The notes under the pieces were generated by a model, which was not told where the DNA came from, did no database searches, and saw only the letters and a list, made by a program, of their open reading frames with translations. This document shows, one piece after another, positions 13,879 to 53,072 of a stretch of 64,000 nt of DNA. Position numbers and translations under genes: made by a program. The stretch spans positions 19,158,001-19,222,000 of the forward strand of contig NC_090357.1 of assembly GCF_035084215.1 (NCBI RefSeq), in the 5' to 3' direction. This DNA is from Heptranchias perlo (lineage: Eukaryota). Positions within the stretch are counted from its first letter, which is position 1. Every line of letters begins with the position of its first letter.

Positions 13879-14164
13879 GTATTAATATCATGACTATAAG
13901 AGGAGGGTAAAGGCTGGGTACACTGCAATATGTGACTCACCTCCTTCGCAGATGATATAAAGCTAATGAAGGTGGTAGACTGTAAAGTTGAACATGATAA
14001 GCTATCAGTCAGCTGTGGCTCAGTGGTAGCTCTCACCTCTGAGTCAGAAGGTTGTGGGTTCAAATCTCACTCCAGAGACTTGGGGCCCGATTTTACCGCG
14101 GGATGATTGATGTGATTAGCCGGCAGTTACGGGTTCCGCGCTTCTCAGCTGCGTGCCGGCGGCC

Positions 14165-14210
14165 TGCGCATGCGCATTGACGTCTGAGCGATGGTTGCGC
14201 TCTATTTAAA
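14165..14210 (+). promoter_or_regulatory. Putative Pol II promoter of the Harbinger Myb gene
   Basis: NRF1-type palindrome TGCGCATGCGCA (14165-14176), CRE-like TGACGTC (14178-14184) and TATTTAAA (14203-14210) upstream of ATG 14260. The TATTTAAAGGGGCAGTCC block recurs in copies A and C. Confidence 0.55.
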
Positions 14211-14259
14211 GGGGCAGTCCACCAAAGCCCCTCCAGCCACAAACTACACTCCATCAAGG

Positions 14260-16130
14260 ATGGAGGAGCACAGGGGTAAGGCTGCTCCCCGTTTCACGGA
14301 CCACGCCCTCCAGGTGCTGCTGGACGGGGTCCGCATGAGGAGGGAGACGCTGTTCCCCACGGATGGAAGGAGGTGCCCTGCCAGCGCCACCAAGAGGGCA
14401 TGGGAGGAGGTGGCCGCGGAGGTCACAAGCAGGGGAAACACCACCCGCACTTGGATTCAGTGCCGCAAGAGATTCAATGACCTCACCAGGTCCGGAAAAG
14501 TGAGTACACTAACACACTCTGCATCACTCCATCTTCCACATCACCTCAAACACCTCACAACCCCATCTCCACTGACAGCACTGCGCTCCCGCACCAATCC
14601 TCACAGCCACCCAACTATCAGCCTCACAGTGCCTGCACGTACCCACCGTCCCTGTCCCCACTCGACCACTACCACACACCCCAATGCCCATACAATGGGA
14701 TGGCCATGTGGCACACGCATCCTCCCATCCATCTGGCACACGCTCAACCCAATCACACCAATGCTTGAAGCGTCTCACATTGTAATCATCACTCAATAAC
14801 GTTTTTGTGTTTTGCCCTCACAGGAGAAGAGGGCCAGGAACGCACGCGATAGGGCACGCACCGGAGGGGGCCCGCCACACGAGATGGCCCTGACAGACGC
14901 CGAGGTCAAGGCACTGGAGATCAGCCGCACGCTGCATTGCCTGTCGATGGCGGATGGCGAGTCTGGTTCTGGCGAAACGGCCGGTAAGGGAAAGCTGGCA
15001 CTCATCACTCATGATCGTGAATGATCTTAGCATCACATGGCATATGCCGCACCGCCACATTTGGTCACATGCCTGATATTTCCCTCTGTTCTCTTGCAGG
15101 ACCGTCTGCGATCGACGTCTCGGTTGAGGGCGATTCCTCAGAGGACATGCCCGTCTCTGAGGGTGCATCGTCACACATGAGCCTTGCATCCACCAGCGCA
15201 GATACACACACCTCGGTGGGTCCCCCCCCTCAGCTAGTTGGGATTGCACATGGTGAGTCACCGCGCACACGTGAGCATGAGCAGACCCTGGTGGCAGGGT
15301 CAGCCGCGGAGGGTCCGCGTCGGTGGGAGCACTCTTCTCCAGGCTTTGCTCAGCCGGACCCAGATGCTGAACCCAGGGGGCCACCTGTCAAAAGGAGAGT
15401 CGTCGAGAGGCACCAGAACATTGCTGAGGTACTGGGAGAGGTGCCACGCGCACTCTCCACAATCGCACGGAGGATGGAGGAGTCCAACTCCTGCATGAGG
15501 GGAATGGTGGCACAGGTGCAGGAGGGTATCGCCGAGATAGTGTCGCAGGGACGTGAAGGCATCTCTGAGATAGTGTCGCGGGTAGGTGTGGGAACGTCTA
15601 CGGTGGAGGACAGGCTAGCCTCCCTCGAGCGTCACGCACAGCTCACCAATGAGTCCATCCAGGCCCTCACAACGGCTGTTCGGATTCAGGGTGAACAACA
15701 TTCTGCCGCCATCAACAGGTTGATAGATACATTGGAGGTGGCCTTGCAAGGTCTCACCCACGTCATCCAAACTGCCGTCCAGCAGGGTGGAAGGGGTGAT
15801 GTGGGCCTTGGCCATGAGAGGGAAGATGGTGAACGGGGAAATGGAAGTGTGGACGCTACTCAAGGCACCCCCAAGTCTCACCCGTTGCCCCCCTCTCAAC
15901 CAGTGCCCGCAATAGTCCATCCTCTCCAGGTGGCCGAGTCTGCCCCTGCACAGGTGCAGGAGGAGCAGTCTGTGGAGGTGCCCTCACGGGCACCGAAACC
16001 CAGGGGGCGTCGGCCCAAAGCATCTACCCAGTCAGGGCATGAACAGGAGCAACCTGCCACCACCTCTGCTGGAGCCACAGGGGTAGCACCACGTAGGGGG
16101 TCCCGAAAACGAACGCCTAAAGTTCCGTGA
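14260..16130 (+). CDS. Harbinger Myb/SANT-like DNA-binding protein, 476 aa, join(14260..14499,14824..14983,15100..16130)
   Basis: Continuous frame over canonical GT-AG introns (phase 0, then phase 1). Contains KAAPRFT...WEEVAAEV...RTWIQCRKRFNDL and the RTGGGP motif of the NAIF1/MSANTD type, and ends in basic RRGSRKRTPK. Confidence 0.88.
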
Positions 16131-16427
16131 GCACACAGGGATTGCACCAGGGTGTTTGTCGTTTTTTTAAAATTTTCTACTCTTTGAATGTCACCACAAA
16201 ATAAACTCACTTTTTCTCACCAATGCTGCCACCTCTTGTCCATAATTCTGCGGCTTGTGCAATATGTCCCTTCCGTGCGCCTCATCATGACGACGACCAC
16301 CCCGTCCCACCCATTGGGCATAATCCAGTGGGTGCAGGTGTACAGGCACCACTCTTCTGTGGAGGGAGCCTGTATGGACCCTCGTCTGTGCACGTTATGA
16401 CATGTGAACGCCTCACACAGTGTGATG

Positions 16428-17661
16428 TTAGGAGAACCGTTGGCATATGAGTGCCTCCCTGGCCTGACGAGCACGCAGGTGAGCCAGTGTTCGGCGCATG
16501 GGTCGTTCCTCCTCCTCTCCCTCTTCCTCCTCCTCCTCTTCCTCCTCCACCTCCTCCTCATTGTCGTCCTCAATGTGGGTGGCGGGTGTGCATGGGGCCT
16601 CCTCCAGCGGCACCCCTCTCTGTAGTGCCATGTTGTGCAGGGCACAGCAGACAACTATAATTCGTCCCACTCGGAGTGGCGTGTATTGGAGCGCTCCCCC
16701 GGAATGATCAAGGCACCTGAAGCGCATCTTGAGCAGCCCTATAGCCTGCTCAATTGTAGACCTGGTAGCAATGTGGCTGTCATTATACCGACGCTGTGGC
16801 TCGGTAATGGGGTTCCTCAGAGGTGTCATAAGCCACGTGTGCAGGGGATATCCCTTGTCGCCGAGGAGCCAGCCGTTGCCGGCGTTGGGTGCGTGGAAGA
16901 GGGGCGGGATGGTGGACTCCGAGGACGAAGGCATCGTGGCAGCTGCCAGGGTATCTGGCGCACACGTGTAGGAATCTCTGGCGGTGGTCACAAATGAGCT
17001 GGGCGTTCATGGAGTGATACCCTTTCCTGTTGATAAACAGCCCTGGCTCATGTGGAGGTGCCCGTATTGCTATGTGGGTGCAATCGATTACACCCTGCAC
17101 CCGTGGGAAGCCAGCCACAGCATGGAATCCAACCGCCCTCTCCGTCTGGCTGCGCTCATCCATGGCGAAGTTGATGTAGGTCGAGGCCCTGCGGAACAAC
17201 CCATCGGTGACCTGCCTTATGCACTTGTGTGCAGACGACTGACAGACCCCGGTGATGTCCCCCGTGGCACCCTGGAAGGATCCGGAGGCGAAGAAGTTGA
17301 GGGCAGTGGTGACTTTGACGGCGACGGGTAAGAAGATGCTGCTTGGTCCATCCGGGAGCAGCTCGTCATTGAGGAGGCTGCAGATGTCGGCGACTACCTG
17401 GCGAGTGACTCTGAGCCTCCGTATGCACTGCTGCTCAGAGAGGTCCATGAAGCTATGCCTCGGTCTGTAGACCCTGTGCGGAGGGTAGTGCCTCCTGCGA
17501 CGCATCTCTCTCTGCGGATGCCCTCCATCCTGCTGTGCAGGTGGATGTGCCGCAGCACCGTGTTGTGGGGATGCACGTCTCTGAGGCGGACGACGTGGAC
17601 TGCGAGGCTGCTGAGGCTGGTCATGCTGTTCGTCCTCCGAGGATGTCAACGCAGCACCCAT
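16428..17661 (-). pseudogene. Harbinger (HARBI1-type) DDE transposase, ~411 aa when repaired, broken by one 2-bp deletion near 16920
   Basis: ORFs 16783-17661 and 16428-16991 join at HDAFVL/ESTIPP, where copy D reads ctc-cgg-gag-tcc. Catalytic motifs IDCTH, LGDKGY and [15 protein letters not shown] are all present. Confidence 0.9.
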
Positions 17662-18589
17662 CTGGCAGGTTTAGGTTTGTGGGGTTGTGCACGCTAGAAA
17701 AGTGTGTCCTCGCACAGGGGTTGGACTTCCACGCCGGTGAATCTTCTTGCTTGGAGGAGGGTGGTGGAGGGCAGGCGTTGCCCAATGTTACGGAGTGTCC
17801 TCCTGCGTTGGTGAAGGCTCTCCCCCCCCCCCACCTGTGGAATGCACCTTGGCAGCTGCCACAGGCTGCTGGCTGCAACACGTCCGTTGAGAGTGTGAGT
17901 GTTTCCCCCAGTATGGGAAACAGTCTCATTTCACTGTAAAATCCCACACCTGTTAAATAAACAGCTCAATCAGGTCATTTAATGACCTGAAATACCAAGA
18001 TAAATACACTCAAGTGGAACCCCGCTGGCTTTAATTGCCTGCGGGATTCCCACCAGCGGGGCCAACGCACGCACCCCCGCACGTCAGCGCGCAACCCGGA
18101 AGTGGGCGGGATCGAGGCGCGATCCGGTCCCGCTCCTCGAAACCGGGATTTTAGAGGCCCCCCCGCCGAGAACGCACCCGGAACCGGGTGCTAAAATCGG
18201 GCCCTTGAGCACAAAATCTAGGCTGACACTCCAATGCAGTACTGAGGGAGTGTTGTACTGTCAGAGGTGCCACCTTTCAGATGAGACTTTAAACCAAGGC
18301 CCCATCTGATATAAAAATCCCATAACACCATTTTGAAGAAGAGTAGGGGAGTTCTCCCCGGTGTCCTGGCTAATGTTTATCCCTCAACATACAACACTAA
18401 ACCAGATTATTTGGTCATTATCACATTGCTATTTGTGTGACCTTGCTGTGCACAAATTGGCTGCAGCATTTCCCACATTAGAACAGTGACGACACTTCAA
18501 AAGTACCTCATTGACATAAAGCACTTTGGGACGTCCTGAGGTCATGAAAGGTGCTCTATAAATGCAAGTCTTTCTTTTTACAAAAGGAT

Positions 18590-19260: not shown

Positions 19261-19995
19261 ACATTATATGAGTAATTTAAGAGAAATGGTTAAGTGTCGC
19301 ATGCTTGGGAGGGACAGATGATTTTGGACCTATAGTTCCCAAAGCTTTCCACCACTGGGGGTTTTCCTTGCCTCATGTCTGGGTCTGTTGTAGCCTAATT
19401 GATAGAGATTGATTGTCATGATTAGTCAACAACTCTGTTATCATTGTATCATGCGACTACCAGGGTGATAGAAGGCGAATTAGGTAGTCCTTGGTCGTTT
19501 CTTCATGAAGCAATTCCTATGTTCCTCTGGGGGTCTTTAGAAGCAGCCAAATTATTGGTTAGCAACAAAAGGCAGGTGACTGAAGAACATTTTTGCCTGA
19601 TTTCTGTTTTTTTTAAAATAGAAAAAAGTCCAAAAAAATATGATTTTTTAAAAATTCATTCTATGGAAATAAATTATACACCCAAACGGTTCACTGTTAC
19701 TCTGAATCAATGGGCAATTGAATTGATCTGCACAAAATCAGTGGTTTCTGTGGGGAAGATGTGTCTTGAACATTTCCATTACACCATATGGGCAGTTACA
19801 CTGCAAAATGAAACACATGCATTTCCTCCCTACCTTCATCGAACCTGTTGATCTGTCATTTTAAACTTAAACTGAAATAAACACACTCTGGAAAGGAGAC
19901 ACCATTCATGATACAGGAATTATGACCAAAGAATTATGTATAAACGAGATGTTTTAAAGAAAGAAATAAACTGAACAGATTTAAGAGAACATCGA

Positions 19996-20053
19996 ATGGA
20001 GGGTATATTACTGCAGCTGATCTTGTTCTTTCTGACACAGACTGGTGTAGCAG
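19996..20053 (+). CDS. Leader (signal peptide) exon
   Basis: MEGILLQLILFFLTQTGVA-G, ending in the phase-1 donor CAG|gttagt. Confidence 0.75.
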
Positions 20054-23000
20054 GTTAGTGCTCTGATTAAATTCCGTTAATCCGATCGCTGTATTACATT
20101 TATTGGTTCAGACTGCAACTCATCTCAAATGTTTGCTGATGCTGAATCCTAAACATGTTAAGAGTAACACGACTGGATCATTCAAATAAAAGTTCTGTAG
20201 TCATTAATATAATTTAAAAATATTATTTTGATACAAAGTTTCTACTTAGGTCCTTATATGGTTTATGTTTTAATAGAAATAAAGTGATGGAAAATTCCTT
20301 ACTAATAAAATACAGAATTGGCCAACATTTACAATGCAAGGATTTTGCTGGAACTCTGTGTTGTAGATTGAAGTTCAGCAGGAGGGTCGGGTACTCAAAT
20401 CCTGAATGTTCACAATGTAACATGTTTTGTAGCTATATAGAGTCTTTAGGGTGAAAATGAATACCGGGTTATCATTCAACTTCTAACATATGTTATAACA
20501 ATGATTTCATTTGTGAACTGAGATTGAATACTATAAAATTCACATGAAAAACTATGAACATTGTGTTCCTATTTTTTTTTCCATTGTGATTTTCTTCATA
20601 ATATTACAGGTAGATGTGTGTGATCAGGTCTCAGGTTATGTTCAGCAGATGAGGTATTTTATCCCATAAGTATCCCGGTTGTTGGGGAAGTGACTGCTGT
20701 GTCTCGTCAGTGCCCTTGAGAAGACAGTCCGTCACATAAATTGTATATTTAATTATACTGCAAGTGAAACTGACTGGATCCATACAGTCTGGTACAGGGG
20801 CTTTATTTTAAGAGTGATGTAAGAATTAACAATTCCCCATCAATCTATCTTAAAGGGCAATAGTGTGGCCTGCAGTTCTGACATTGAATCAGGTATTCTT
20901 AGCAGCTGTGTGAGATTGCTGAAGATTGACACAGTTTATTTCCAAGAGTCTCATTACATATATATTATATGGTGATGATAATCAATGTCCATCTGGCTGT
21001 AGATAGAAGAGGACAAGGGATATGGTTAGAGATTTATAATTAGACAATTGTTTTTATAGTTAATGTCAAAGGGTGCTGTAATACCACACATATCACTCAG
21101 ACCTGTATCTATAGAGCATGATGGTCAGCCAGCAGGCCTGAGATACACTGCTGACTGCACCTCACACTGTAAATTAACTACAATGGAGCTGTATGCTTGA
21201 ACGTATGCACAGAGCTCTGTTCATGGACGATTCATTTTTAACATTAAAGAGCATGAACAGAGTGGTCAACATTTTCGAAACATGAAAAAGATTTTAAAAA
21301 GGCCTGGGTACTTTGAAAATGCGACTTTGCACTGGGTTGGAGTTATACTGCAACTCATGTAAACTTCAAACAGACACAGTGACTACCTACTGCACAATGT
21401 TTCGATTCTGGATTTACGTAGAATTACATAGAATTTACAGCACAGAAACTGGCCATTCAGCCCAATTGGTCTTTATGCTCAACGCGAGCCTCCTCCCACC
21501 CGACTTCATCTAACTCTATCAGCATGTCTTCTATTCCTTCTCCCTCATATACTTATCTAGCTTCCACTTAAATGAATCAATGCTATTCACCTCAACTACT
21601 CCATGTGGTAGCAAGTTAAATATTCTAACCACTCACTGAGTAAAGAAGTTTCTCCTGAATTCCTTATTGGATTTATTAGTGATTGTCTTACATTTATGAG
21701 CCCTAGTTTACTGATTACTGATCAGTGCCTCAATCTATCATCAGTGCTACAGTTTAAACGAAACATATAGATTGATACAGAATTGTTACATCATTCTTAA
21801 AGTTTATGAATTAACATCTGTGGTGACTTACAGCTACAAGTATTTAATAAAAAATATTGTAGGCTACAATTTAAAACCCCAGAGATGTCCTCCATATATA
21901 AGGTACAGCTTAAAAAAAAGCTATTCAAGGAATTAGATGACTCAGATAATGTAGAATGGGTGAGACAATGGACATTTTGGTCCTGAAATTCTGCAGAGGA
22001 GCTCCAGGATTTCCTGCTGTAATTCTGGCAAATCCCACCCCCCCCACCCCCAGGAAAATGCTGTTAATGGTTTAAAATGGCTGTGTATGCTCTTTCCCTG
22101 GGAGTTCCACCAGTCTCCCACCTGAGATACAGCAGGAGACTTGGAAAACCCCCCTTTCAGGGCCTTTATGGGTGATGTACCCAGATTCCAAACTTGGTTA
22201 CTTTTTAAAAGTTATGAACATTTTCAACAATAACAATATCTGCATCTTGGTGGGAAACTGTTGGCATTACAACCGGATAGACACATTTGGGTGAAATCAT
22301 GCTGTGCGATGTTAGAATTTTTCTTTGTCTTCATTTATAGAGGATATCACTTGAAGCCCCTTGGCCCTCTAGTTTCAACAAAGACTTTATTTTAAATGAG
22401 TTGACATTAAATAGTGGCCAAAGAAATTTTGTTCAAATACATTAATTCAGTTGTGTGCTAATACTACAGAGCACAAGATCACCCCTTAAGTATTTTGGTG
22501 GCTGATTTTCCAATATTTGGACAAGTAAATAAGTCAGGCTCTTCCTTTCTAGTTCTCATTAATATTCTTATAAATTTCCAGATTTTGAAATCATCCCCTA
22601 GAACATTTCACTCAGGGCGACCCGAAGCACTTTACAGCCAATTAAGTGCTTTTGAAGTGTAGTCACTGTTATAATGTAGGAAACATGGCAGCAGATTTAC
22701 GAAAAGCAATGATTTAATAACCAGATTATCTGTTTTAATGGTGTTGGTTAAGGGAAAAGCTTTGGCTAGGACACCAGGAAAATTCCCCTGATCTTCTTCA
22801 AATAATGCCACAGGATCATTTACATCCAGCTGAGAGGGCAGATGGAACCTCGGTTTAATGTCACACTCGAAAGACGGCACCTCCGACAGTGCAGCACTCC
22901 CTCAGTACTGCACTGAAGTGTCAGCCTAGATTTGGTGGTCAAGTCTCTGGAATAAGACTTGAACCCACAACCTTCTGAGTGTGCTACCACTAAGCCATAG

Positions 23001-26000
23001 CTGGCTGGGGTACGGGGGCCCAATTTCAAAGTTTGCAGATGACACAAAACTTGGAAGTGTAATTAACAGTGAGGAAGATAGTAACAGACTTCAGGAGGAT
23101 GTAGACAAACTGGTGAAATGGGCAGACATGTGGTAGATGAAATTTAATACAGAGAAATGTGAAGTGATGCCTTCTGGAAGGAAAAATAAGAGGTAATAAA
23201 AACTAAATGTTACAATTTTAATAATGTACAGGAACAAAAAGATCTGGGGGTTCACAATCACAAATCTTTGAAGGTGTCAGGGCAATTCGATAATGCTGTT
23301 AAAAAAGCATACGAGATCCTTGGCTTTATAAATAAATGGTATAGAGTACAAAACCAAGGAAGTTATGTTAAACCTTCATAAATCACTGGTTGGTATCAGC
23401 TAGAGTATTGTGTCCAATACTGGGCACCACACTTTAGGAAAGATCTCAAGTACCATAATGATACCAGGAATGAGGGGTTTCAGTTACATGGAGAGCGTAG
23501 AGAATTTGGGATTGTTCTCCTTAGAGCAGAGAAGGTTAAGGGAAGATTTAATAGAGGTGTTCAAAATTATGAGAGATTTTAATAGGGGAAATAAGGATAA
23601 ACTGTTTCCACTGTTGGGCAGGTCAGTAACCAGAGAACACAGATTTAAGGTAATTGGCAAGAAGTAGGGGCAGATGAGGAGAATTTTTTTTTTATATACA
23701 CGGCAAGTTATGATCTGGAATGCACTGCCTGAAAGGGTGGTGGAAGCAGATTCAATAGTAACTTTCAAAAGGGAATTCGATATATACTTGAAAAGGAAAA
23801 AATTACAGGGCTATGGGGAAAGAGCGAGGCAGTGGGATTAGTTGGATAGCTCGTTCAAAGGGCCGGCACAGGCACGATGGGCAGAATGACCTCCTTCTGT
23901 GATGTAAAATTTTATGATTCTATGAAACGGGGACTTTTTTCAATAGAACAGAGAAGGTTAAGATTCTAGTTAGTGAGTCAGTACCTCAAAGGACAGAATT
24001 TTAAGATCACCACAAAAAGGGTGGAGAGAGGGGTTAGGAATTTATTTTATGCTGAGGCTTGTTAGGAATGCCTTACAAGAAACAGCAATGGAGGCATAAT
24101 CCATAAAGTTTTTAAAAAGGGAAATGAATAATATTTTTAAAATTTAACGGGTAAAATCCAATGATTATATGGAGCTAAAACAAATCAGAATAGATGGGAA
24201 TCAAAAGCAAAATACTGTGGATGCTGGAAATCTGAAATAAAAGCAGAAAATGCTGGAAATACTCAGCAAATCAGGCAGAATCTGTGGAGAAAGACACAGA
24301 TTTAGTGGGCCCGATATTAGGAGGGAGGCGGGTTGGCAGCGGGGGGTCGACTGGGCATGTGGGTAACGCGTTCGGTGAAATCAGTGATCGCAGCCTAATT
24401 GAAGGTACTTACGCGTGCTTCCGGGTTTCCTGTTGCAGACCTGCGCAGCGGGCGCACTGCGCACCCGCATCACAGGCTGTCAGCAGGAGGAGCCCTATTT
24501 AAAGGGGCAGTCCTCTGATGTTCGTCATGCAGCAAAGGACCAAATTGGCAGCATGGAGCAGTCCAGAGGCAAGGCTGCTCCAAGGTTCTCAGACTCCTCA
24601 CTCCAGGTGCTGCTCGATTGGGTCAGGAGGAGGAAGGAAACGTTTTTCCCAGCGGACGGGAGGAAGTGGCCTGCCTCTGCCACCAAGAAGGTCTGGCTCG
24701 AGGTGGCAGAGGAGGTCAGCAGCAGCAGTAACATCTCCCGAACCTGGGTCCAGTGCAGGAAGCGCTTTAATGACCTAACCAGGTCAGCCAAAATAAGTAT
24801 ACTTACGCATTCTCCCACACTCCGTCTTCCACATCACCTCCACCACCACACAACTCCTTCTGCACTGCCACGACAATGTTCTTGCATCACTCCTCACATC
24901 CACTGAACCATCATCCTCACCTTGCCTGCACTTACTCACCGCCCCAGTTCCCATTCGAACACTACCACGCAACCCACTCCTCATACAATCTCATGGCTGT
25001 GTCTCACACGCATCCTCCCATGCCCTCACGGTCACCCCCACACACACCAATGCATGCAACTATGCAACCATTACTCAATCCTCAATCATGCCTCTCTGTG
25101 TTTTGCATTGATAGGAGAAGAGATGCCAGAAGGCCCAGGAGAGGGATGATGGCGAAAGGGGACATGGAAGTGGGGATGCCACTCAAAGCGCTTCCATGTC
25201 TCACCCGTTGCCCCCCTCTCAACCCGGACTCACAATGCTGCCTCCTCTCCAGGTGGCAGAGTCTGCCCCTGCACAGGTGCAGGTGGAGCAATCTTTGGAG
25301 GGGCCCTCACGGGCACCGAAACCCAGAGGACATCTGCGCAAAGCATCTCATCGGTCAGGACATGGACAAGAGCAACCTGTCACTACCTCTGCTGAAGCCA
25401 CAGGGGTAGCACCACGTAGGGGGTCCCGTAAACGTAAGGCTAAGGTTTTGTGAGCACAAAAGTGTATGACGGAATGTCATGTTTTTCATTTAGATTTGTT
25501 TCTTTTGCCAACCACGTTAAATTTTGTAACCACTACTGCCACGTCTTTGCAAATCTTGTCTGGTTTGTGCAATAATTCCCTTTCCTGAGGATCACCCTGA
25601 AGACCCACACCTGATGCCACCCATTGGGTCACTGCAGAGTGGGCGTAGGTGTATTTGCAGGGCTCTTTTGTGCAGACGACTGAGACGCTGGAGATGTCCC
25701 CGGTGGCACCCTGGAAGGATCCGGAGGAGAAGCTGAGGGCAGTGGTGACTTTGATAGCGACAGGTAAGAAGATGGTGCTCGGGCCAGCCAGGAGCAGCTC
25801 GGCATCAAGGAGGCTGCAGATGTCCACGACTACATGTCGAGTGACTCTGAACCTCCGTGTGCACTGCTCCTGAGAGAGGTCCAGGAAGCTGAGCCGTGGT
25901 CTGTAGACCGTGTGGTGAGGGTAGTGCCTTCTGCAATGCATCTCTCTCTGCGGTTGCCCTCCCTTCTGCTGTGCAGGTGGATGTGCCACAGCACTGTGTT

Positions 26001-29000
26001 GTGGAGCTCCACACATCAGAGGTGGATGGCGTGGCCGGCGAGGCTGGTGTTGCTGTTCGTTCTCCGATGCAGCTATGGCGGCCCCCATCCGGAAGATGTA
26101 CGTTTGAGGGGGTCCGCAAGGTAGGTAAATGTTCTGCACATTGGAGTTGGTGAATTTTAGTGTTAGGAGGAGGGTGGTACAAGCCAAACTTTGTCCAAAG
26201 TGACAGAGTGGCTTCCTGCAATGAGTGAGGATCTCCCCCCCCACCCCCCCACCACCCCCCACCCGACCTGTCAAATGGACTTTTGCAACTCCCACTGGCT
26301 GGTGGCTGCAACATGTCTGTTTCAACTGGTAGTGTTTCCCCCAGTACGGGAAACACACTCAGTTGACATGAAAATCCCACCCCTCCTAAAATATCCTCCC
26401 AATCAGTTCTGCAAACGACCTGAACTGTGTTATTAATTGCTTTCAGTGGGATCCCACCAGCTTTAATTGCCGGTGGGAGTCCTTCATGCGGGGGCTGCGG
26501 CGCATCTCAGCATGTCATTGGGGAACCCAGAAGTGGGCAGATTGGAGCTGGGCTCCGGACCCGCCCCAGGAATCCCCAATTTTAGCAGCCACCCCCCGCC
26601 ACGAATGCACCCGCTCGGCTATCTGAAAATTGACCCCAATGTTTCAGGTCGATGACCTTTCGTCAGGACTGGAAGAACTTAGAGATTTAACACCCCATTT
26701 TGGCTTGCACCATCATTCTTTTTGTCATTTAATCATTCCTGCCCTCCATCCTATCATAGACCTTCCCTTTTGCACCTTCCTCCTCCCCCCATTGCCCTTT
26801 GCCTGGCTCTGTAACTGCTTAAAAATTGTTTAATCTTCAACTTCTTCCAGTTCTGACAAAAGGTTGTCGAGCTGAAATATTAACTTTGTTTCTTTCGCCA
26901 CAGGTGCTGCCTGACTTGCTGGGTATTTCCAGCATTTTCTGCTTTTATTACACAATAAATGGATGTGGTCATGCTTATACTATGTTCATGCTCTGACCAG
27001 ACCACATCTTAAGTGCTTTGTTTGGTCTAGTCATTAAGACACAGGGGAGAAACTCAAGCCCTGGAGATAGCTCAGAGAAGAGCCACAAACTGATTCCCAG
27101 CAGCAGAGGACTGAGCTATGGGGAAAGAGAGGAGAAACTTGGGTTATTCAGCATTGAAAGAAAGTTAATTGAGAGGTGACCTTCCAGAGGTATACAAGAT
27201 AGTGAACTGTATGGACACAGTAAATCCAGAATATTATTCCAAACTAAAACATGAGAATAGGACAAATGGCATAAGTTCAAACTATTAAAAAAGGCAAATT
27301 TAGGACCAATATCAGGAAATTTTCTTCACAGTGACCAACACATTGAATGCATTTCCAGGCAGAGTGGTGGAGACAATAACCCTGGAATCATAGAAGAGAC
27401 AATTAGATGCCTTGGGAGAGGGAGGGAAGGGATTTTGTAATGAGAGGAAGTCTATTTATGACTTAGGACTAGCATCACTAGGTGCAAAGAGAACAATTAT
27501 TAGTCAGATGTGAATTTTCTTGAAACAACCGAATAAGATTTATTAGGAACAACCACACAAGTGTTTCCATCCCAAACATACTACAGTCCAATTATCGATG
27601 GGAATACAATTCACCCATGTAACAGAGAAGTGAGGGAAACGCTCCTCTGACATCACACCTGACCATTGGGCCCTCTTGCTTCTGTGTGTAGGACTAGCTC
27701 AGCAGACAAATTCTCCTGCTTACAAACTTATGGAAGGAGTTTTTATATCTATTGCTCCACCTCTACAGGGGTTTCTCTAATTACAAGAGATGGATCAGCA
27801 TACCCCTACTGCCTGAGCCAATGGAACAACTCTATTGCCCTGGCTGCATCTGGATCACATTTACTGAGACCACCTCTCTTCCTCCACACAACATACACCA
27901 TTATTTCAAAGCAACCCAACACATCAGGAAGATACTGTTCCTGCCTTAATGGGTCTACCATTTAGCATGAATCAAATATACCACTGAACTGTAAACAAGA
28001 ATATTCGATTCACAGTTAGATAGCTAAATACACATTAATAAAGCAGGAGATTAACCCCGTCTTATAAACTGTGGGGTCGTCCTGGATGGATCAGCTAAGA
28101 TGAATGGCCTTTCTCATCTGCAATTATCTTGAGATCTACCTAATAAATGGGTATATTGATCTTTTAATATACTAGTGGCAATGATTTGCTGCTCTGTTAA
28201 ACTTACTGTGTAAACACTATTAAAGTCACCAAATGTGTTTGATGATTTTTGCTATAATTTTATTATGGGACAATTTCCCTTCTTCATTCGTCAAAGCAAA
28301 ATTGTGAACATGTGCATTACACATATTTACAATTTCACAATAAATAATAAATCTTCCCCATTATTAGTAGACGAGTCTGATTGGGTCTAAGATTACATTC
28401 AGCAAATGTTGCATTTTGTCCCATTAGGTGTTCCGGTGATTGGGGAGGTGACTCAGCCCCGTCTGGTCAGTGTCCTGCGAGGAAAGTCAATCACAATAAA
28501 CTGTATGTTTAATTACACTGCAAATGTCAGTGATTGGATCCATACAGTCTGGTACAGGAGCTCGCCAGGGATCGCTGATACTCACTATAAAGGGAATGAG
28601 CTGAGCTGCATTCCTGAGATTACTCCGGGTGTTTCTAGTCGTTGTGTTATGTTATTGAAGATTGAAAATGTTTCTTTCAAAATCTCCGATTCTAATTATA
28701 CCTGTGTGGTGAAAGTACCAACTGTCTACCCGCCCATAGAGAGAAGAGGACCAGGAACACGATTGCATGTCAATGGTAAATTGTGTGTATATATCATAAA
28801 CGGATAATACTTTTATATGAATAACTACTGTTACCAGAATTTAATAGGTAAAGATAATGGAATGCAATGCCCAATGTGATCATTTCTGAACTGCTGGGAC
28901 CATGAAAGTGCCATTCCATGGAAGGTAATGAATGATGAATGTTGGATGTAAAATTGGACTGGTAGTCCAGAGTTCTGATTGATTTATCTTCGGGGCCAGG

Positions 29001-32000
29001 GACAAAGTTCATAGAACTTTTATTCCGGATTCGGTGAATCCATGATGGGCCAAATGGCACCCGGTACGTGGATAGAACAGGCTTGGTAGGCCAAAGGCCT
29101 TTTCTCAGTCTATTGTTATGTTTTTTTTTTCTACATTAGGTACACTGATCAGTGCCTCAGCCAATTATTGGTATAATAAAATGTGGACCTACTCCATTAC
29201 AATGAAGCCTAGGCCTGTAGACACAGTTTCAGCAGGGGAGTGGGGGGGTGGGGGGTTCAACTTTGGTAAACAGCAGCTTTGGTAGCAATGCTGATGCATA
29301 TTTCTTCTCCATAGTCCAGGAATGCTGAAGCCATATGTAGTATGTCATCCCCAACTGCTATTGGCTAATTCAGCACAAGGTCCCTCCTCATCTGTACTGT
29401 TCAATTACTTTTTATTCTTGGAATCCATAAATGCCCCAAAAGACAGTTTAACTGAACCAACCATTTGCCTCCCCTCCCCCACAAATGGGCTCGAAAGCAA
29501 AATAATAATTGATAATGAACTACCTGTCTGACATCAAGTTGTGGATAGGTCAGAACTTTTTCCAGCCCAGCATCAAGACTGAAGCCATTCTTTTTGGCTC
29601 TCACCAGTCTTTGTGCCTCAACCATTGGTTCCAATCCACTTCTCAAATGGTTGCTCAGACTGAACCCAACCAAGTACAGTCTCAGTGTCTTGTTTGACCC
29701 AGAGCCAAGATTTAAACTCCACATGACGTCCACTAACAAGATTGCCTACTTCCAGTTCCATAACATCCCCATCTATGTCCCTACTTCACCGCCAAAACCA
29801 CTGAAACTCTCATCTACTCCTTCATCACCCTTGACCCCTCTGTCCTTGCCAACTACTGCCCCATCTTCAACCTCCCTTTCCTCACCAAAGTCCTTGAATG
29901 TGTAGTCGCCTCCCAACAATTTTTTTTTAAACATTGATGATACTTGCACCTCACTGGGAGGCTGCACATCGTGCAACTGGAATTATACATGTAGCTTCTT
30001 GGAAAATGTCAGCATTAACTGCGAGTGACTCACCTCCTGACTCCCCAAAGCCTTTCCACCATCTACAAGGCACAAGTCAGGAGTGTGATGGAATACTCTC
30101 CACTTGCTTGGATGAGTGCAGCTCCAACAACACTCAAGAAGCTCGACACCATCCAAGATAAAGCAGCTCGCTTGATTGGCACCCCATCCACCACCCTAAA
30201 CATTCATTCCCTTCACCGCCGGCGCTCAGTGGCTGCAGTGTTGACCATCCACAGGATGCGCTACAGCAACTCGCCAAGGCTTCTTCGACAGCACCTCCCA
30301 AACCCGCGACCTCTACCACCTAGAAGGACAAGAGCAGCAGGCACATGGGAATGACACCACCTGCACGTTCCCCTCCAAGTCACACACCATCCCGACTTGG
30401 AAATATATCGCCCTTCCTTCATCGTCGCTGGGTCAAAATCCTGGAAATCCCTTCCTAACACAACTGTGGGAGAACCGTCACCACACGGACTGCAGTGGTT
30501 CAAGAAGGCGGCTCACCACCACCTTCGCAAGGGCAATTAGGGATGGGCAATAAATGCCGGCCTTGCCAGCGACGCCCATATCCCATGAACGAATAAAAAA
30601 AACCTCCATTTAGGAGTTTTATAATATTAGTGTAAACATAATATACATATAATTTAGGTTCTTCATTTCTAGTTCTTATTTTTCCCCAATCATAAATAAT
30701 AATTCAATTTAACTTAAGGTCTTATACAAACAAATCTAATATAATTTCAGATCCTTCATTACAATTCAATATACCCAAATGAAAATTGAGTAAAAACGTT
30801 TAGGCATTATGCCACAAATCCTATGTAATTTCAGGCTATCTATTGGCATCTTGAAATACTAACAGAAATCAAATAGCAACATTACAATATAAAGAGACTA
30901 GAGAGACATACTGCAGATCTATCACAATAGCAGTGATCCAGGGTGCAGGCAGAACTGGTGTCCACACTTAATTCGCATTTACTGAATTTGGGCCTAAAGA
31001 TGTGAAATCCCCCAATTCCCATTGAAACAACATCGGGCCTCATGCAAAATTTAACATATTAGATAAAAACATAAAAATGAAAAACTGAAATGCCATTCTT
31101 ATCACTAAGGGGAAGGCATTTTATGTGACTCTGCCATTTGATGGGCTGTATGATCTTCACCAATCATGAGATACAAATTATATTCACGATACACTCTGAA
31201 CACCCACTGTGTAATTCGCTTATTGAAATGGAACTGCTATATGCTTTGAATGTGTAAAGCTTGTTTGACATTGGTTTGCTATTTTTTTTAAAAAACATAA
31301 ATACAACATCACTGTATTTGACGTTGTATGTTACAGTGCCGCCATCTCCTCCAGCAATTTCTATTACTCAGGAAGAGTTAATAGCTGGGAACGAGTCTGT
31401 TTTGTACTGCCTTGCTGGGGGCTTTTATCCTCAGAATATCTCCATTAAATGGCTACACAAAGAACAAACCATTTCTCACAATGGTCAATCTTCACAAGCA
31501 GATGGTAAAATTAGATATACGACCAGACTGTTCACCTTCAGGAACTCGGATGGCACATTTAATGTTACCAATCGAATGATTTTTGTCCCCACCTTGCAAG
31601 ACCATGGTACAATCTGTACTTGTCAAGTCCATCATACGATGTGTAAAAGGCTGATAAAACATATAACACTGAATGTGAACTGTAAGTATGTTCAATTAAT
31701 TAATTTGTGGCCTTCTGTTTTTAATTTTCTATTATATAGCACACTTCCAATGGAAGTCTAAGGCGGCCTAATCGCTAACTGCTTCACTGAAGCTTTAAGG
31801 TAATTTGGCAATGTCAGTCTAGAGTGTCTGTGTGAATGGCAGTCTGAGCTTGGAGTGTCCAAGTTAGCACACTGTCCTTTCACATCTGGGTCTGAAATTC
31901 AGCTCAGAAGATTGGGATGAAGGCCTTTTGTCTCTGCTGGGTATCTTATGTCTTAGGTAAATTGGGCAATCTCAATGAAACTGGCCCTGCAGATGGGGTT

Positions 32001-35000
32001 GCTCTTCTATAGTTGAGGCAAAGGCACATCATTTGGCAGAGTAGCAAGATTTTGACTCTGAAGCTGGCTGAGCTATACCTGACTTGGGAGTGCTTGAAGT
32101 GGCCCACTCTTTTTTGCTAAAATTCTTTGCCTTGATGAGCACGGAAAATTCAACACAATTGAAAGTAGAAATCTCCCTTTATTACATTTACGATGGACTT
32201 AACACTTAAGATTATATACTTGCCAGTAGAATGCATTTCCCCTTTAATGAATATATTGGAACCTAGTACACTGCTCACTTCTCTTGTAGAAATTGTTGAT
32301 TTCAGTGTAGGCTTATAGTATGTGGATCTATCACTGGCAAATTATACTCCTAATTGGTAATGGGTTTCAATGACTTATGCTTAATTTTATAAAGTGGCCT
32401 AAATTATATTTTTGACATTGTTAATGAAAATGATAAATCTGATCTATGCAAACTATTTATTGAGGTGAAGGGCTCAAATACCCAGTGACTCAGGTTAAAA
32501 TTGAGAAAGTTAGGAATAGAAAGGGAAGTCAGTGGGGCATTTTCAACTAAGGGGTATAAATTTAGGAAATAAACTGCCAGGAAAGACCTCTGAATTATAA
32601 TATAAATGAACTCAAGAACTAATTAGATGTGTTTTTGAAGGCAGAGGAATTGAGGGAAATTGGAAGAAGGTGAGGTTTGTCTACTAAAAAGGGTCGGATT
32701 AGTCGGGCTTTCTCCTATTCATAAAAATTCTGTCAAAGGCTCACCAATCTGCTACATCACATGTACAACTTCACATAGTCCTGATCACAACAGGATGGTC
32801 AGGAGAGATACCTCCACCGTGAACAAGGAAGTGGAAATTGGAGAATAAGTCAATCTGTGTTACTTTTGCACATTTTCAGTGACTGGTTTGAGAGTGGTGT
32901 CAATTAGGAATGGTTTGTCTGCCTTTCTTTTGGTTAGGAGGACACATCTAATAAATGGAAATAGAATTTCATTTTAACAATCAATCCTTTCATAAGTGTA
33001 ATAGGAAGACAGGAACAGGAATGGGCCATTCAGACCCTCAAGCCTGTTCTGCCATTCAATAAGATCATGGATGATCTGTATCCTAACTCCATTCACCCAC
33101 CTCGGCTCCATATCCCTTAATACCCTTGGCTAGCAAAAATCTATCGATCTCAGATTTAAAATTATTAATTGAGCTAGCATCCATTGCTTTTTGTGGGAGA
33201 GTGTTCCACACTTCTACCAGTCTGTGTGAAGAAGTGTTTTCTAACTTCTCTCTTGAATAATCAAAACAATTACCCCAATACTTTAAAAAAAACAGTTCTG
33301 TGCCCTTGGATACATATTTATACAGAAAGGGCATACCTGCAATGGATGCTTCAATTTCCTGTCAGTTTTGTCTGTCCTCTGACCAAATGTACACAGTTCT
33401 ACGAAGCTTTATTGAATCTGCCGATATTACTAATTACTTTCCACTTCCATGGTTCTGATTCAGATGGTCCGCAGCCCGTTATACATTACAGGTCTTCTGA
33501 TTCAGACCAGCTCCTTCCACTGCTCCAAGATGTCATCCATGCCACTCCCCAGTCATTTCTTGAACTAAACTGTACAGCAGACAGTAACCCAGCATCCACA
33601 GTTATCTGGAAAAAGAAATCCTGGGGGCAAAGTGGAAGCATACAATTGGCTGCTGGAGTAAGCAGTTCAGTCCTGAAGAAAATGAGTGTTGATGATTCAG
33701 ACAGTGGAGAGTATATTTGCAGAGCGCACAATGCATATGATTTAAAAGAACACGTTGTTGGAATACACATACTATCTGGTTTGAAAAGTAAGTGCAATGA
33801 TGCTACCTGCAAAAAGGAATGTTTCTTCATTATGAATTCTCAGTGTAGAGCAAACTGAGAGAAGAGTAATTTATTATAAACTCAAAACATTAACTCATCT
33901 TTTTGCCTTTTCATGTGCCAGACTTAAATGATTTGATTGTAAAGTATACAGCTTTGTAAGAAAAAGAATAACCCTGCGGTCAGTGAGCCCATCAACCTTA
34001 CAAGGTGTAGTATCTAAGAAAAGGACCAGATGAATATTTAAGTTCTTTACCTTAGCTCCCCATCAAAAAAACATCTGGGGATTTAACATCCATGTCTAGA
34101 GGATTACTAGATGCCTAAATTTTGCTCCCTTGAACTATCTAACATTAACCAGCCTGAAGAATATTAACCCGTATGTGACCAATCACCCTTCAGAGGGCCA
34201 GTACACTGCTGAAAGAATGAGGTAACCTCAAAGAGAAAGTCAGGCAATGAAATCATGAACTAACATTCCTTATTAACATACTTATGATAATATATTTAGC
34301 ATCATTTTAATATTAAACATTACAAGTATTCAATATACTTGAGTAGATGTTATTAACTAACAATTAATATCTGAGGTTACAAAGGCAGTTGAAGTGGATC
34401 ATAATAAATCAATACAAGCTGGGCTCTACTTATTAGTAGTTGATGTTATGCTTAAGGTCCAAGATTGACATGAAGACAGCGAGGTTCGTTTAGGTTAGAC
34501 TTCAAATATAGCTGCCAAGTTAACAACTTTGAATAGTGAGTATGTCGAATATATTAAGACTAGCTAATTCAGTTCATTGCTGATGAGCTTGCAGCTTAGC
34601 AACATTAGCAATATTCTTAGATCTTATACAAACTAGTTCTTTCAAATCAACATCTTCTATGATTCTATTGCAGGCAATTGGGACTAGCTTAGTGGTATAA
34701 ACTGGGTGACATGGACATGTTGGGCCGAAGGGCCTGTTTCCATGTTGTAAACTTCTATGATTCTATTATAGAGTTGGTGGTCTCCCCTCTCTGAGCTGTT
34801 TGTGCTTGCCTCAGAGATATCAGCATAATTAATCTCTTCTATCAGAGTTTTACATCCTCCTTCTTTCTCAGCAGCACCAACCTCTTTTGTGATCTCAAAA
34901 ATAAGTTAACTTGCAAACTGTAAAACCCTGACAAAACAAGGGGCATCAACTCAGATTGCATGTTGGAAAATTTTGCAAACTCCCGCTTGCCCAGAATGCA

Positions 35001-38000
35001 CAGACGTGTTTGAAAAATCTTTCCATCTGTTGTGAGGTTAAAAAAAAAATCCAGTTGAATTCCAGGCTTTTGAGTCAGACTGAGACCTTCAAGTGAAAAC
35101 ATGAATGGAGGCATCAAAAGACAATTCAGTGGGTAAATTTAATCAGGTCATTGTGAAATATGTAGTTACTTTTTCATTTAAAGAAAATGTTTAAAACTTT
35201 ATTTGACATTAGAAATTTTAGTTTTAGAAAAAAAAGTGGATTTTTTTTTCAAAAAGCATTTTGAATGATTTGATTGGTTAATGGTGAATTTTAAAAAATT
35301 TAGATAAAGTTTTGCCATTATAAATATTTCATATTGATTTTCAATGTGAAATGTCGATATTAAAAACGTGACTCAACTTCTTGACACAAAGTAAAGTTGG
35401 ACGACAGGAAATGTATACCATATGCAAGGTTCTATAAATATGCCATGAGTCACCAGGCACAAATGTTACAGTTTAAGTAACGATTCCAGCTGATCTATCA
35501 TTTTTTTAAAATATAGATTGATGCAAAACAACTCAAATACAGCTAGGTTACCAGTATTGGTGAAAATAGCTTTATCTGTAATGCAGGCCTGAAGTTGTAC
35601 TATGCCTAAAACAGTAATATTACATTGCCAAGACTTGCTGAATTGTTGAAACAAGGACTGACGTATTCCTACCTCCTGCAATGTGGCATGGAGATCCTGC
35701 ACTGGCACTCATGGAGAAAATGAAATTTAAGTCACAAATCATGATGTTAATACTATATTGAGACAGTATACCAGGAATGCAATTTAGCTTGTATTTATCA
35801 CCATTCTTTTACATTGAAGCAGATCATGAGAACTTAAACTGCTTTTCTGTTCCTTTACAGGTAGTTTTCCAGTCCGAACTGTGACAATGCCAATCTTCGT
35901 GGTGTCTGTCATTTTATTACTGATCTGGGCCAGTAGATGGAAAGGTAAATTAACAGTGGCTGACTAGAGGCACAAATGTGAAGTGACGGTTTTAATAGCC
36001 ATTAACTCATTCACCACTTGATGTGATTTGGTTTAGTTAACAGAATTTGGAGTGAGAAAAAAAAAATCAAGCCACCAAACCTGCTCAATAAGATATTCCT
36101 CCAATGCTTGGTCATGGGACAATGATAGACAGCATCATTATTGCAGCTGTTCAGAGTGGTTGCAAGATGCAGTAAATGAAGTGTCACAGAGATAGCATGT
36201 CACAAATGATGGATGCTATTCAGTACATAATCTGTGCATCAAATGAAATGGTAATTTAAATAGATGATGGTAAACAAATATTAATGGAACTATGTGGAAA
36301 GGTGTTTGATTTGTTCTGAAATACAGGGACTTAAGTTAGAATAAGATCATAAAAAAATACACATTTCTGAAAATTATTAGCAATGCACAATAATTTGGGA
36401 GGTGGTTGAGAGATGTATTTACATGTCGTAAGCTAAATTATTTCATTAAAGAAATCTGAGCTTTCCTCAGGACTGTAATGCCATGTGGTGGCTTGGAAGG
36501 ACCTGGTAGCATAGAAATGTAATGTTGTGGTCACCTTCACAGCCTGGCAGAGCTGTCCCTGTGTGAGCAGGTCCTGTTCAAGGAGACAGCATGATTCAGT
36601 CACAGTCTCTCTCAGGTATTACAGACAATAAAGGGAGATAGGTGTGCCAAATCCTGAACATGTTATTCATGCGACAAGGACAAGAGTGTGTCAAATGCAT
36701 CAGGTGAAATTACGCCTGCTTGCCTTTCCTTCACATCAATTTTTCCTCTTCTAAATCGAGGAGTACCGTAGGAATTCCCATGCTGAAATATTAGCATGTT
36801 GCCAGTAAAATAGCAGCAGTCAGCAAGACTGTGCTGGCCAAAGGATTCTGCAGCATCAGTGTTGCAATGCAAAAATAAAGCACCAAACACCACCAAGATA
36901 ACGCACAAACAGGAAACCAAAAATATATAAAAGAGCGCCTTCAATAAGTAATAATCAAACAGAGCTTTAAGAAATAACCTCCCCAATGCCACAACAGAAA
37001 TCCCAGCAGCATATAAAGAATGACCAGGTGAAAAAACACAGATTGCAAAATTTTCTTAATAATACATAATCATCTTATTTCACAGATAAGTACTGCCCTC
37101 GCAATTGTGGGTAAGTCACAATCTAACCTGTTACTCTTTTAGTATAAATGATAGATTGAACAACTGTTTGAGCTAATCTGCACCAAATAACATGCACATT
37201 TACAAACACCAAGCTACAAAACTTAATCATTGCAGTATACAGTTCCGGAAACTCTAAAGCTTAGACTCAATGACCAGCGGCTGACTCCACAGCCTTACTT
37301 CATTTGGCACTATGCTAGACAGCAGAGTTTGGATGAACTGAAGTTTACAGAGTGAAGCATAGGAAGCCGGCCAGGAGAGCATTGCAATAGTCAAACCTGG
37401 AAGTAACAAAGGCATGGCTGTGGGTTTTATCAGAAGATGGGTTAAGGCAGGAGCTGAGGCGAGTGACATTATGTTGATGGAAGTAGGCGATCTTTATGAT
37501 GGAAAGGATATGGGGTTCGAAGCTCAGCTCTTGGTCGAATAGCTTACTGAGGTTGCAAACAGTCTGGTTCAAACTGAGACAGTTGCAGGGGAGGGGGACG
37601 GAATCTGTGACCAGGGTACGGAGTTTGCGGTAGGGACCGAAGATTACGGCTTCAGTCCCACTTAGACTGGATGTTGGATAAGCAGTCTGACAGCACAGAG
37701 GCAATGGAGGTGTTGAGACAGGTAGAGGAGAGGTAGAGCTGCGTGTCATCAGCGTACATGTGGAAGTTGACCACATACCTTCGGATGATGTCACCAAGGG
37801 ACCGTGTATAGATCCTTGGAGGACTCTGGAAGCAACAGTTAAGGGGCTGGAAGAAAAGCCATTGCTGGAGATGCTCAGCCTAAGATTGGATGGATAAGAG
37901 TGGAACCAAGCGAGGGCAGTCCCACTGAGCTGGACAATGTAGGAGAGGCATTGGAAGAGGATGGTGTGACTAATCATTTTGGAGGCTGCAGAGACGTCGA

Positions 38001-50340: not shown

Positions 50341-50656
50341 CATCAGACAGTGTGAAGAGTCCAGTCCTCACCACCTGGACAGCGGAGCGGCCACATCAGC
50401 CCCCTCCCCCACCCCCTGCACAAAATAGTCATGCAACTACACCTACACCCACTGTAGACTGACCCAATGGGTGGCATCAAGTGTGGGTGTTCATTGTGAA
50501 CCTCATGAAAGGGAGTTATTGCACAAGCCAGTCAAGAATGGGCAAGATGTGGCAGTAGTGGTGATAATAATAAGATTTATTGTGAATGGAAAACAAAACA
50601 AATATAAATAAAAAACATGACAAAGCGTCAAACAACCTTATGCATCCCCTTTGTGC

Positions 50657-52509: not shown

Positions 52510-53072
52510 GCCGCTGCCTTGGTTCTTCGCTGCAGGAGCAGCATTGGAGGACTGCCCCTTTAACTAGGATTCCTCCAGCTCACCGCCAGTGACGCAGGTG
52601 CACAGTCCGCCCACTGCGCAGATTTCCAACGGGAAAACCGGAAGCCAAGGTAAGTGGCTTCAATTTACTTGCAATCGCGTGGGGAACCCACCGATTTTAC
52701 TGGGCGGGTTACCCACTCGCCCAATCGACCCCCCGCTGCCAACCCGCCTTCCTGGTAATATCGGGGCCTAGGTGTGGGACTTCAATGTCCATCATTAAGA
52801 GTGGCTCACTAGTACCACCAGTAACCGAGCTGGCCAAGTCCTGAAGGACATAGCTGCTAGACTGGGCTTGCAGCAGGTGGTGAGAGAACCAAAACGAGGG
52901 AATAACCTACTTGACCTCGTCCTCACCAATCTACCTGTCGCAGATGCATCGGACCATGGCAGTATTGGTAGGAGTGACCACCGCACAGTCCTCGTGGAGA
53001 CCAAGTCCCATCTTCACACTGAGGACACCTTCCATCGTGTCATGTGCCACTATCGCTGTGTTAAATGAGATA

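What the first reader, a model, noticed from the sequence alone, without database searches (positions are those of the whole stretch)
20670..21038. Hidden pseudo-VJ exon in intron 1, sharing an exact 24-nt tract with the functional V exon
Seen in sequence: a frameshifted copy of the V exon lies between the leader and the functional V, and is absent from the ORF track. It is visibly diverged along its length, yet TGGATCCATACAGTCTGGTACAGG is identical at 20775-20798 and 28535-28558. It also has a longer segment after the conserved Trp. Inference: the gene once had two tandem V domains or mutually exclusive V exons. An upstream pseudo-V could also act as a gene-conversion donor, as pseudo-V segments do at chicken Ig loci. 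The exact tract could equally reflect former selection around the invariant Trp.
Basis: partly seen in the sequence, partly recalled or inferred. Interest (0 to 1): 0.7.

Follow-up and report, generated by a model that had tools for sequence, protein, structure and literature searches.

The report
Half-overwritten dead exon in shark receptor
This is a broken spare copy of the outermost-domain exon of a shark immune-type receptor gene, likely skipped in splicing, whose front half is much better preserved than its back half, likely because a working copy once overwrote it rather than because it donates sequence the way chicken antibody pseudogenes do.

Summary
Observation confirmed. 20670-21038 is a dead copy of the V exon at 28428-28775 (68% identical, 7 indels, stops, 5' splice site lost), and the 24-nt tract is exact. 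The gene is an Arg-transmembrane (likely activating) V-C1-I receptor, gene C, in a three-gene paired-receptor cluster; this scan noted the family before on other DNA (e1-8656466, e1-10275703). The tract is unlikely under uniform decay (p 0.004-0.007) but is not a specific conversion mark: it encodes the near-consensus C strand, its third positions also match paralogue A, a polymorphic-site test gives p 0.15, and a dead C1 copy in the neighbouring gene also holds a 24-nt exact run. The stronger signal is that the copy is a mosaic: private changes at 7 of 89 conserved sites up to the tract's end, 42 of 135 after (change-point p 0.0008). The back half is at the intron baseline, the front half well above it. 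Best reading: long-dead exon, front half refreshed in the germline from an intact V exon, the reverse of the proposed donor direction. No pseudo-V array, RSS or two-V relative was found. Known kind (KIR pseudoexon 3, SIGLEC11/16); modest interest.

The parts
19590..19995 (+). Upstream/promoter region of gene C, homologous to that of neighbouring gene B (inverted, about 57 kb away)
   Evidence: 61% global identity vs 47% shuffled; local score 53 vs shuffled max 29
19996..20053 (+). Leader exon (19 codons + 1 nt, phase 1)
   Evidence: only hydrophobic ATG..GT candidate homologous to gene B's annotated leader; none found between 21040 and 28427; splice to V inferred
20054..20669 (+). First 616 nt of intron 1; homologous to the whole 536-nt intron 1 of gene B, so the dead exon sits at the ancestral V position
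   Evidence: 62% global vs 45% shuffled; no homology to gene A intron 1 (45%)
20610..20669 (+). About 60 nt of intron shared with the intact V's acceptor region (28367-28427)
   Evidence: 49 of 63 identical, score 47 vs shuffled max 29
20670..21038 (+). Dead V exon copy (pseudo-V)
   Evidence: 233/344 identical to the intact V, 6 indels in the exon plus 1 in the acceptor, stops, donor lost
20670..20798 (+). Better-preserved front half of the dead exon
   Evidence: 105/128 identical to intact V; private changes 7 of 89 conserved sites
20775..20798 (+). 24-nt exact tract, C-strand codons W-I-H-T-V-W-Y-R; right edge of the preserved half
   Evidence: best change-point falls on its last base
20799..21038 (+). 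Decayed back half, starting with a 24-nt net longer segment (22+2 nt) that holds a TAA at 20820-20822
   Evidence: 128/216 identical; private changes 42 of 135, spread 15/12/15 over codon positions
21039..21040 (+). Lost 5' splice site (AT where the intact exons have GT)
21755..21854 (+). Intron patch homologous to intron 2 of gene B, collinear with the blocks above
   Evidence: score 57 vs shuffled max 29
28428..28775 (+). Intact single-exon V domain (twin tract at 28535-28558)
   Evidence: Pfam V-set E=3.4e-5, 24.4 bits, just under the curated cut-off of 26; AG/GT ends
31337..31681 (+). C1-set exon
   Evidence: Pfam C1-set 45.6 bits, cut-off 21
33464..33787 (+). I/C2-type Ig exon
   Evidence: Pfam Ig_3 39.3 bits, I-set 30.4 bits
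35861..35944 (+). Transmembrane exon with an Arg at its outer end
37086..37110 (+). Short cytoplasmic exon
   Evidence: matches the sawshark orthologue P0001
40482..40581 (+). Last coding exon, short tail without ITIM; the seven exons give an open 427-aa frame

Best explanation
The segment is a frameshifted, donor-less copy of the V exon inside intron 1 of an intact V-C1-I receptor gene, likely skipped in splicing, and its front half was likely overwritten long ago in the germline by gene conversion from an intact V exon of the same cluster, with the 24-nt tract marking the right-hand end of that refreshed block. Shown: the lesions; its place at the ancestral V position (leader, intron 1 and a downstream patch match gene B); the mosaic decay with its break at the tract's last base; the back half at the neutral intron baseline. 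Inferred: V was duplicated within gene C, the upstream copy died early, and the longer segment after the Trp would have blocked conversion from running further, so only the front 190 nt were refreshed. The most likely donor is gene C's own V 7.8 kb downstream; paralogue A or B is not excluded. It likely has no present function.
For: Mosaic: private changes at 7/89 vs 42/135 sites where the three intact V exons agree (Fisher 2.6e-5; still 7/71 vs 42/135, p=5e-4, with the tract left out; 31/110, p=2.5e-4, with the poorly aligned stretch after the tract left out). Change-point scan puts the break at 28559, permutation p=0.0008; the same scan on the three intact exons gives 0.08, 0.15, 0.58. Back half 59% to the intact V, equal to the 62% intron baseline between genes C and B (p=0.40); front half 82% (p=7e-7). 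Back-half changes fall 15/12/15 over codon positions, as for neutral decay. Informative sites group the copy with gene C's V 16 times vs 3 and 4, including states rare in the family (28506, 28521, 28548). Exon-sized exchange is visible elsewhere in the cluster: A and B share exon tracts at 82-87% while their introns do not align; gene C's V is at dS 0.40-0.47 from A/B while its C1 and C2 are at 1.3-1.5 (trees agree).
Against: At synonymous sites the front half is not closest to gene C's V: dS 0.55 to C, 0.17 to A, 0.32 to B (only 27 sites); 7 front-half sites have the copy equal to A and B against C, as many as the copy's own private changes, which a single recent copy from C would not predict. 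All 6 front-half sites shared with C are non-synonymous and some are ancestral. The front half carries 3 coding indels plus 1 in the acceptor. No orthologous pseudo-exon from another shark could be examined, so the conversion has no phylogenetic test. Skipping is inferred from the lost donor only. The intron baseline is a C-versus-B comparison and only a proxy for the age of the copy.
Confidence: 0.57

Rival explanations
1. Simple dead duplicate with no conversion: the front half decayed slowly by local mutation rate, chance, or because it is held as an intron-1 regulatory element 0.6-0.8 kb from the start codon; the tract is ancestral sequence kept by selection in the intact V and by luck in the copy.
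For: Tract is near family consensus (7 of 8 residues in two catshark inhibitory-type proteins; His in 11 of 15, Arg in 10 of 15 other elasmobranch rows); all 8 third positions also equal paralogue A; polymorphic-site p=0.145; intact paralogues share runs of 21 and 22 nt; gene B's dead C1 copy also has a 24-nt exact run (p=0.33 in its homologous part, 0.04 over the whole exon); synonymous sites do not favour gene C as donor.
Against: A 4-fold step in decay exactly at the tract end (p=0.0008) is unexplained by chance; 4 indels in the front block sit badly with strong constraint; the intact exons show no such step.
Confidence: 0.3
2. Germline conversion ran the other way: the dead copy donated the tract to the intact V (as SIGLEC16P did to SIGLEC11).
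For: Precedent in PMC5701461 (abstract and Background read); the sawshark orthologue P0001 differs at 4 of the 8 tract residues.
Against: The anomaly lies in the copy, not in the intact V (change-point p=0.08 and at another place); the tract carries near-consensus residues, not decayed ones; only Val at 28548 is clearly a shared rare state (1 of 15).
Confidence: 0.07
3. The copy is a somatic gene-conversion donor that diversifies V transcripts in lymphocytes, as chicken pseudo-V segments do.
For: Same orientation, upstream, 7.8 kb away (chicken light-chain donors lie within 20 kb, PMC10917233 passage); front half 82% identical.
Against: One copy only against 49 and 120 in chicken; single-exon V with no RSS-like site nearby (hits only at 7776 and 63266); no excess of AID hotspot motifs in V (16 WRCY vs 19 and 22 in C1 and C2); an identical tract is the one place where a donor can add no diversity; frameshifts every 20-40 nt would make most tracts destructive.
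Confidence: 0.03
4. The exon is, or until recently was, used as a second tandem V domain or a mutually exclusive alternative.
For: The extra 24 nt after the Trp are in frame, and the whole copy is +21 nt (in frame overall); KIR pseudoexon 3 arose from a three-domain ancestor.
Against: Splicing the leader to either candidate acceptor stops after 23 or 35 codons; donor lost; back half neutral; 6 of 6 top relatives have one V stretch.
Confidence: 0.03

Closest known systems
KIR2D pseudoexon 3 (human lineage III KIR; PMC3504360 passage)
   Same: A dead Ig-domain exon between the leader and the first used domain of a paired immune receptor, not put into mRNA.
   Different: KIR pseudoexon 3 is a distinct D0 domain that is intact in some relatives; here it is a second copy of the same V, heavily decayed, and no relative with it intact was found.
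SIGLEC11/SIGLEC16 germline gene conversion (PMC5701461, abstract and Background)
   Same: Head-to-head paired-receptor genes whose 5' region and V exon are more alike than the rest; ITIM member beside charged-transmembrane members.
   Different: There the donor is a whole non-functional allele and events are recent; here the dead part is one intronic exon copy, seems the recipient, and the events are old. The proteins are not Siglecs.
Chicken Ig somatic gene conversion from pseudo-V arrays (PMC10917233 passages)
   Same: A pseudo-V upstream of a functional V, same strand, within 20 kb.
   Different: No rearrangement, no array, no evidence of somatic diversification.
SIRP alpha/beta-type paired V-C1 receptors (label recalled; SIRP chains among profile hits, 2wng E=1.2e-18)
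   Same: Single-exon V, C1-set second domain, inhibitory and Arg/Lys-transmembrane partners.
   Different: Third domain is I/C2-type; V carries an extra Cys pair; orthology not tested here.

Membership tests
Chicken-type somatic Ig gene conversion | Acceptor is a rearranged V(D)J gene | tested here: not met
   V is one exon through the G strand; RSS-like sites only at 7776 and 63266 (RSS consensus recalled)
Chicken-type somatic Ig gene conversion | Array of many pseudo-V donors | tested here: not met
   4 matches of 22 candidates in the genome: 3 intact V, 1 dead; DNA search 2 of 2, both in this gene; counts are lower bounds
Chicken-type somatic Ig gene conversion | AID-dependent templated tracts in transcripts | not testable with these tools
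   needs raw lymphoid reads
Ig-domain pseudoexon (KIR pseudoexon-3 type) | Domain-coding exon remnant between leader and first used domain | tested here: met
   leader assignment by homology
Ig-domain pseudoexon (KIR pseudoexon-3 type) | Not incorporated into mRNA | tested here: inconclusive
   donor lost and early stops; no transcript seen either way
Ig-domain pseudoexon (KIR pseudoexon-3 type) | Relatives in which the exon is intact and adds a domain | tested here: not met
   6 of 6 hits at E<=2.5e-30 have one V stretch; one representative per 50% cluster, so limited
Paired receptors with germline V-exon conversion (SIGLEC11/16 type) | ITIM-bearing and charged-transmembrane genes side by side | tested here: met
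   gene A (P0006) has tyrosine motifs, genes B (P0009) and C have a transmembrane Arg and no such tail; motif reading is from established knowledge
Paired receptors with germline V-exon conversion (SIGLEC11/16 type) | V exon closer between genes than the remaining exons | tested here: met
   dS 0.40-0.47 (V) vs 1.3-1.5 (C1, C2) for C vs A/B; trees
Paired receptors with germline V-exon conversion (SIGLEC11/16 type) | Shared ligand and co-expression | not testable with these tools
   needs binding and expression data
Siglec (database label of the relatives) | V-set followed by C2-set domains only | tested here: not met
   second domain scores C1-set 45.6 bits over C2-set_2 33.7; Siglec layout from PMC5701461
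Siglec (database label of the relatives) | F-strand Arg that binds sialic acid in place of the canonical Y-x-C (recalled) | tested here: not met
   family V alignment has the canonical F-strand Cys

The most novel reading that the evidence does not exclude
A non-rearranging shark innate-type receptor has its V domain somatically diversified in lymphocytes by conversion from an intronic pseudo-V whose front half is kept homologous for that purpose, which would put templated diversification outside antigen-receptor genes in jawed vertebrates.
Probability: 0.03. Interest if true: 0.85.

Novelty: new member of a known kind. Interest (0 to 1): 0.27.

Why it matters
As read here it is a molecular fossil: it records V-exon duplication and exchange inside an old paired-receptor cluster of sharks, the same germline process known from primate KIR and Siglec genes. 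It gives a neutral marker for dating when the likely activating gene took on a V exon of the other lineage. It would matter far more only if transcripts showed somatic templating, for which there is no evidence.

Tried and rejected
RNA: no RNA holder listed (3 runs, one sample, kind guessed, best share 0.16). Laying 19700-37000 was swamped by repeats. Laying 27450-29480 gave 3 contigs: one of 156 nt covering 28356-28510 unspliced, two 34-nt partial fits at 28104-28137; no splice joint; uninformative. Orthologous dead exon in other species: no tool here holds other shark genomes; look-ups of earlier findings by sequence and by relatives gave 0, near place 0. Short V-only proteins: 0 of 3 candidates. 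A separate leader for the intact V between 21040 and 28427: none in the scan, and its upstream DNA does not align with the promoters of A or B. RSS and AID-hotspot scans negative. Misalignment after the tract as cause of the mosaic: rejected. The tract as a stand-alone conversion mark: rejected. Siglec membership: rejected. Sequence search of solved structures gave only generic Ig hits. Literature searches for this family or exon found nothing specific (open-licence library only; no supplements read). GENECONV itself is not installed; a polymorphic-column permutation stood in for it.

Full report
Observation. The segment 20670-21038 aligns to the intact exon 28428-28775 with 233 of 344 ungapped columns identical, and the 24-nt tract is exact at the stated places. 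It has six indels in the exon and one in the acceptor, an in-frame TAA at 20820-20822, and AT in place of the donor GT at 21039-21040. Splicing the leader to either candidate acceptor (20610 or 20670) stops after 23 or 35 codons. The longer segment after the Trp is 24 nt net (22+2).

The gene. Seven exons (19996-20053, 28428-28775, 31337-31681, 33464-33787, 35861-35944, 37086-37110, 40482-40581) give an open 427-aa frame with AG/GT ends: leader, V, C1-set, I/C2-type domain, a transmembrane segment with an Arg, and a short tail. I call it gene C. A genome search with V scored 22 candidates and found 4 matches, all on this contig: C, the dead copy, and two intact V exons on the opposite strand 38 and 62 kb before the window. 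These belong to gene B (P0009, transmembrane Arg, no tail) and gene A (P0006, tyrosine-motif tail); the contig length printed for those two entries equals that of the window's contig, which identifies the species as the sharpnose sevengill shark. Reading A as inhibitory and B and C as activating rests on established motif knowledge. Relatives occur in sharks, rays, paddlefish, bonefish and coelacanth under Siglec-, MAG- or SIRP-like automatic names. Two earlier notes of this scan describe the same family; I had reached the family reading before looking and checked its layout here.

Where the copy sits. The promoter region, leader, intron 1 up to the copy, and a patch at 21755-21854 are collinear with gene B's non-coding DNA (61-62% global identity against 45-47% shuffled; local scores 53, 69, 57 against shuffled maxima of 29), and match nothing in gene A. 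Leader to copy is 616 nt; leader to V in gene B is 536 nt. The flanks of the intact V match neither paralogue, apart from about 60 nt of acceptor region shared with the copy (49 of 63). The first 300 nt downstream of the copy align with nothing. So the dead copy holds the ancestral V position and the intact V is the displaced one (inference).

The tract alone. Under uniform decay a 24-nt run is unlikely: p=0.004 by shuffling, 0.004 stratified by conservation, 0.007 by simulation. It is not a specific conversion mark, however. Only 6 of 169 polymorphic columns fall in it, p=0.145. All 8 third positions are also identical in paralogue A; the 4 differences from A are all first or second positions. 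Two catshark inhibitory-type proteins match 7 of its 8 residues; among 15 other elasmobranch rows His is in 11 and Arg in 10, and only the Val (1 of 15) is clearly rare. Intact paralogues share runs of 21 and 22 nt. Gene B carries its own dead C1 copy about 0.6 kb upstream of its live C1, and this also has a 24-nt exact run (p=0.04 over the exon, 0.33 in the homologous part). Within the front block the tract has p=0.07.

The mosaic. At sites where the three intact V exons agree, the copy differs at 7 of 89 up to the end of the tract and 42 of 135 after it (Fisher 2.6e-5). A change-point scan puts the break at 28559, the base after the tract, with permutation p=0.0008; the three intact exons give 0.08, 0.15 and 0.58. 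The result holds without the tract and without the poorly aligned stretch after it. The back half (59% to C, 58% to B) equals the intron baseline (62%); the front half (82% to C, 76% to B) is well above it. Back-half changes are even over codon positions (15/12/15).

Mechanism. Most likely the upstream copy died early and its front 190 nt were later overwritten in the germline from an intact V, the extra segment after the Trp stopping the tract. The anomaly lies in the copy, so it is the recipient. Exon-sized exchange is a visible habit of the cluster: A and B share V, C1 and C2 tracts at 82-87% while their first introns do not align, and gene C's V is at dS 0.40-0.47 from A/B while its other domains are at 1.3-1.5. 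In trees, elasmobranch C and A/B clades are cleanly split on C1+C2 (99/98 and 100/99 support) but not on V (23 and 24 rows; four C-type models lacking most of V were left out of the V tree, isoforms and fragments were not entered; the copy is a long branch and unplaced). Against this reading: the front half is synonymously closer to A (dS 0.17) and B (0.32) than to C (0.55) on 27 sites, and 7 front-half sites side with A and B against C, so the donor is not pinned down and a no-conversion account (slow or constrained front half) keeps about 30%. Timing is also mixed: the copy keeps the A/B-type last codons, whereas C orthologues in sawshark and epaulette shark share C's derived ending, suggesting the duplication predates those splits, yet the copy shares some states with this species' C that the sawshark orthologue lacks, as later conversion would give.

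What is not supported. A chicken-type donor role lacks every testable feature: one copy, no rearrangement signals near the exons, no hotspot excess (chicken figures from passages of PMC10917233). No relative with two V stretches was found (6 of 6 top hits).

Comparison. Closest known cases are KIR pseudoexon 3 (passage of PMC3504360) and SIGLEC11/16 germline conversion (abstract and Background of PMC5701461). Passages of PMC12227049 concern UrIg2, a different gene. Other papers were seen as search listings only. Searches found no paper on this family or exon in the open library; no supplements were read.

Verdict. Real feature, known kind, with one unexplained but probably ordinary twist (the mosaic). 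Interest 0.27.

Noticed in passing
G000:C36, about 41.6-41.9 kb before the window start (L011): Gene B has a dead, frameshifted C1 exon copy about 0.6 kb upstream of its live C1, the same 'dead copy first, live copy second' layout; the live C1 plus about 330 nt of intron is 87% identical to gene A's.
   Followed up: partly
window 28428-28775 vs L002, L003: Gene C's V is about three times closer at synonymous sites to genes A and B than its C1 and C2 exons are, pointing to an old V-exon swap between receptor lineages.
   Followed up: yes
L002 and L003 V exons: A vs B: dN 0.26 over dS 0.16 in V, against about 0.5 in C1 and C2, suggesting diversifying selection on V (not tested statistically).
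   Followed up: partly
P0001, P0013, P0014, P0015, P0018, P0043: Of six C-type orthologue models from other species, five lack most or all of V and the sixth lacks a leader; either the 5' end of this gene is often broken or it is hard to annotate.
   Followed up: no
P0003 and P0017; P0024 and P0071; P0036 and P0073: Short-tail and long-tail members pair within species in sawshark, skate and coelacanth, as expected of concerted evolution.
   Followed up: partly
window 20816-20825: The extra segment after the Trp creates a consensus-like 5' splice site at 20819; use unknown.
   Followed up: no
window 5500-8800, 14100-17900, 24200-26800, 48500-52600: Several copies of a two-ORF element whose ORFs resemble a Harbinger-type transposase and a Myb/SANT-like protein (label recalled, not searched); one lies in intron 1 between the dead and the intact V.
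   Followed up: no
window 45971-46543: Tandem array of about 90-nt units open in one frame.
   Followed up: no
G000:C36 around the window start (-768 to 138): A 378-nt inverted repeat pair at 97.6% identity straddles the window start.
   Followed up: no
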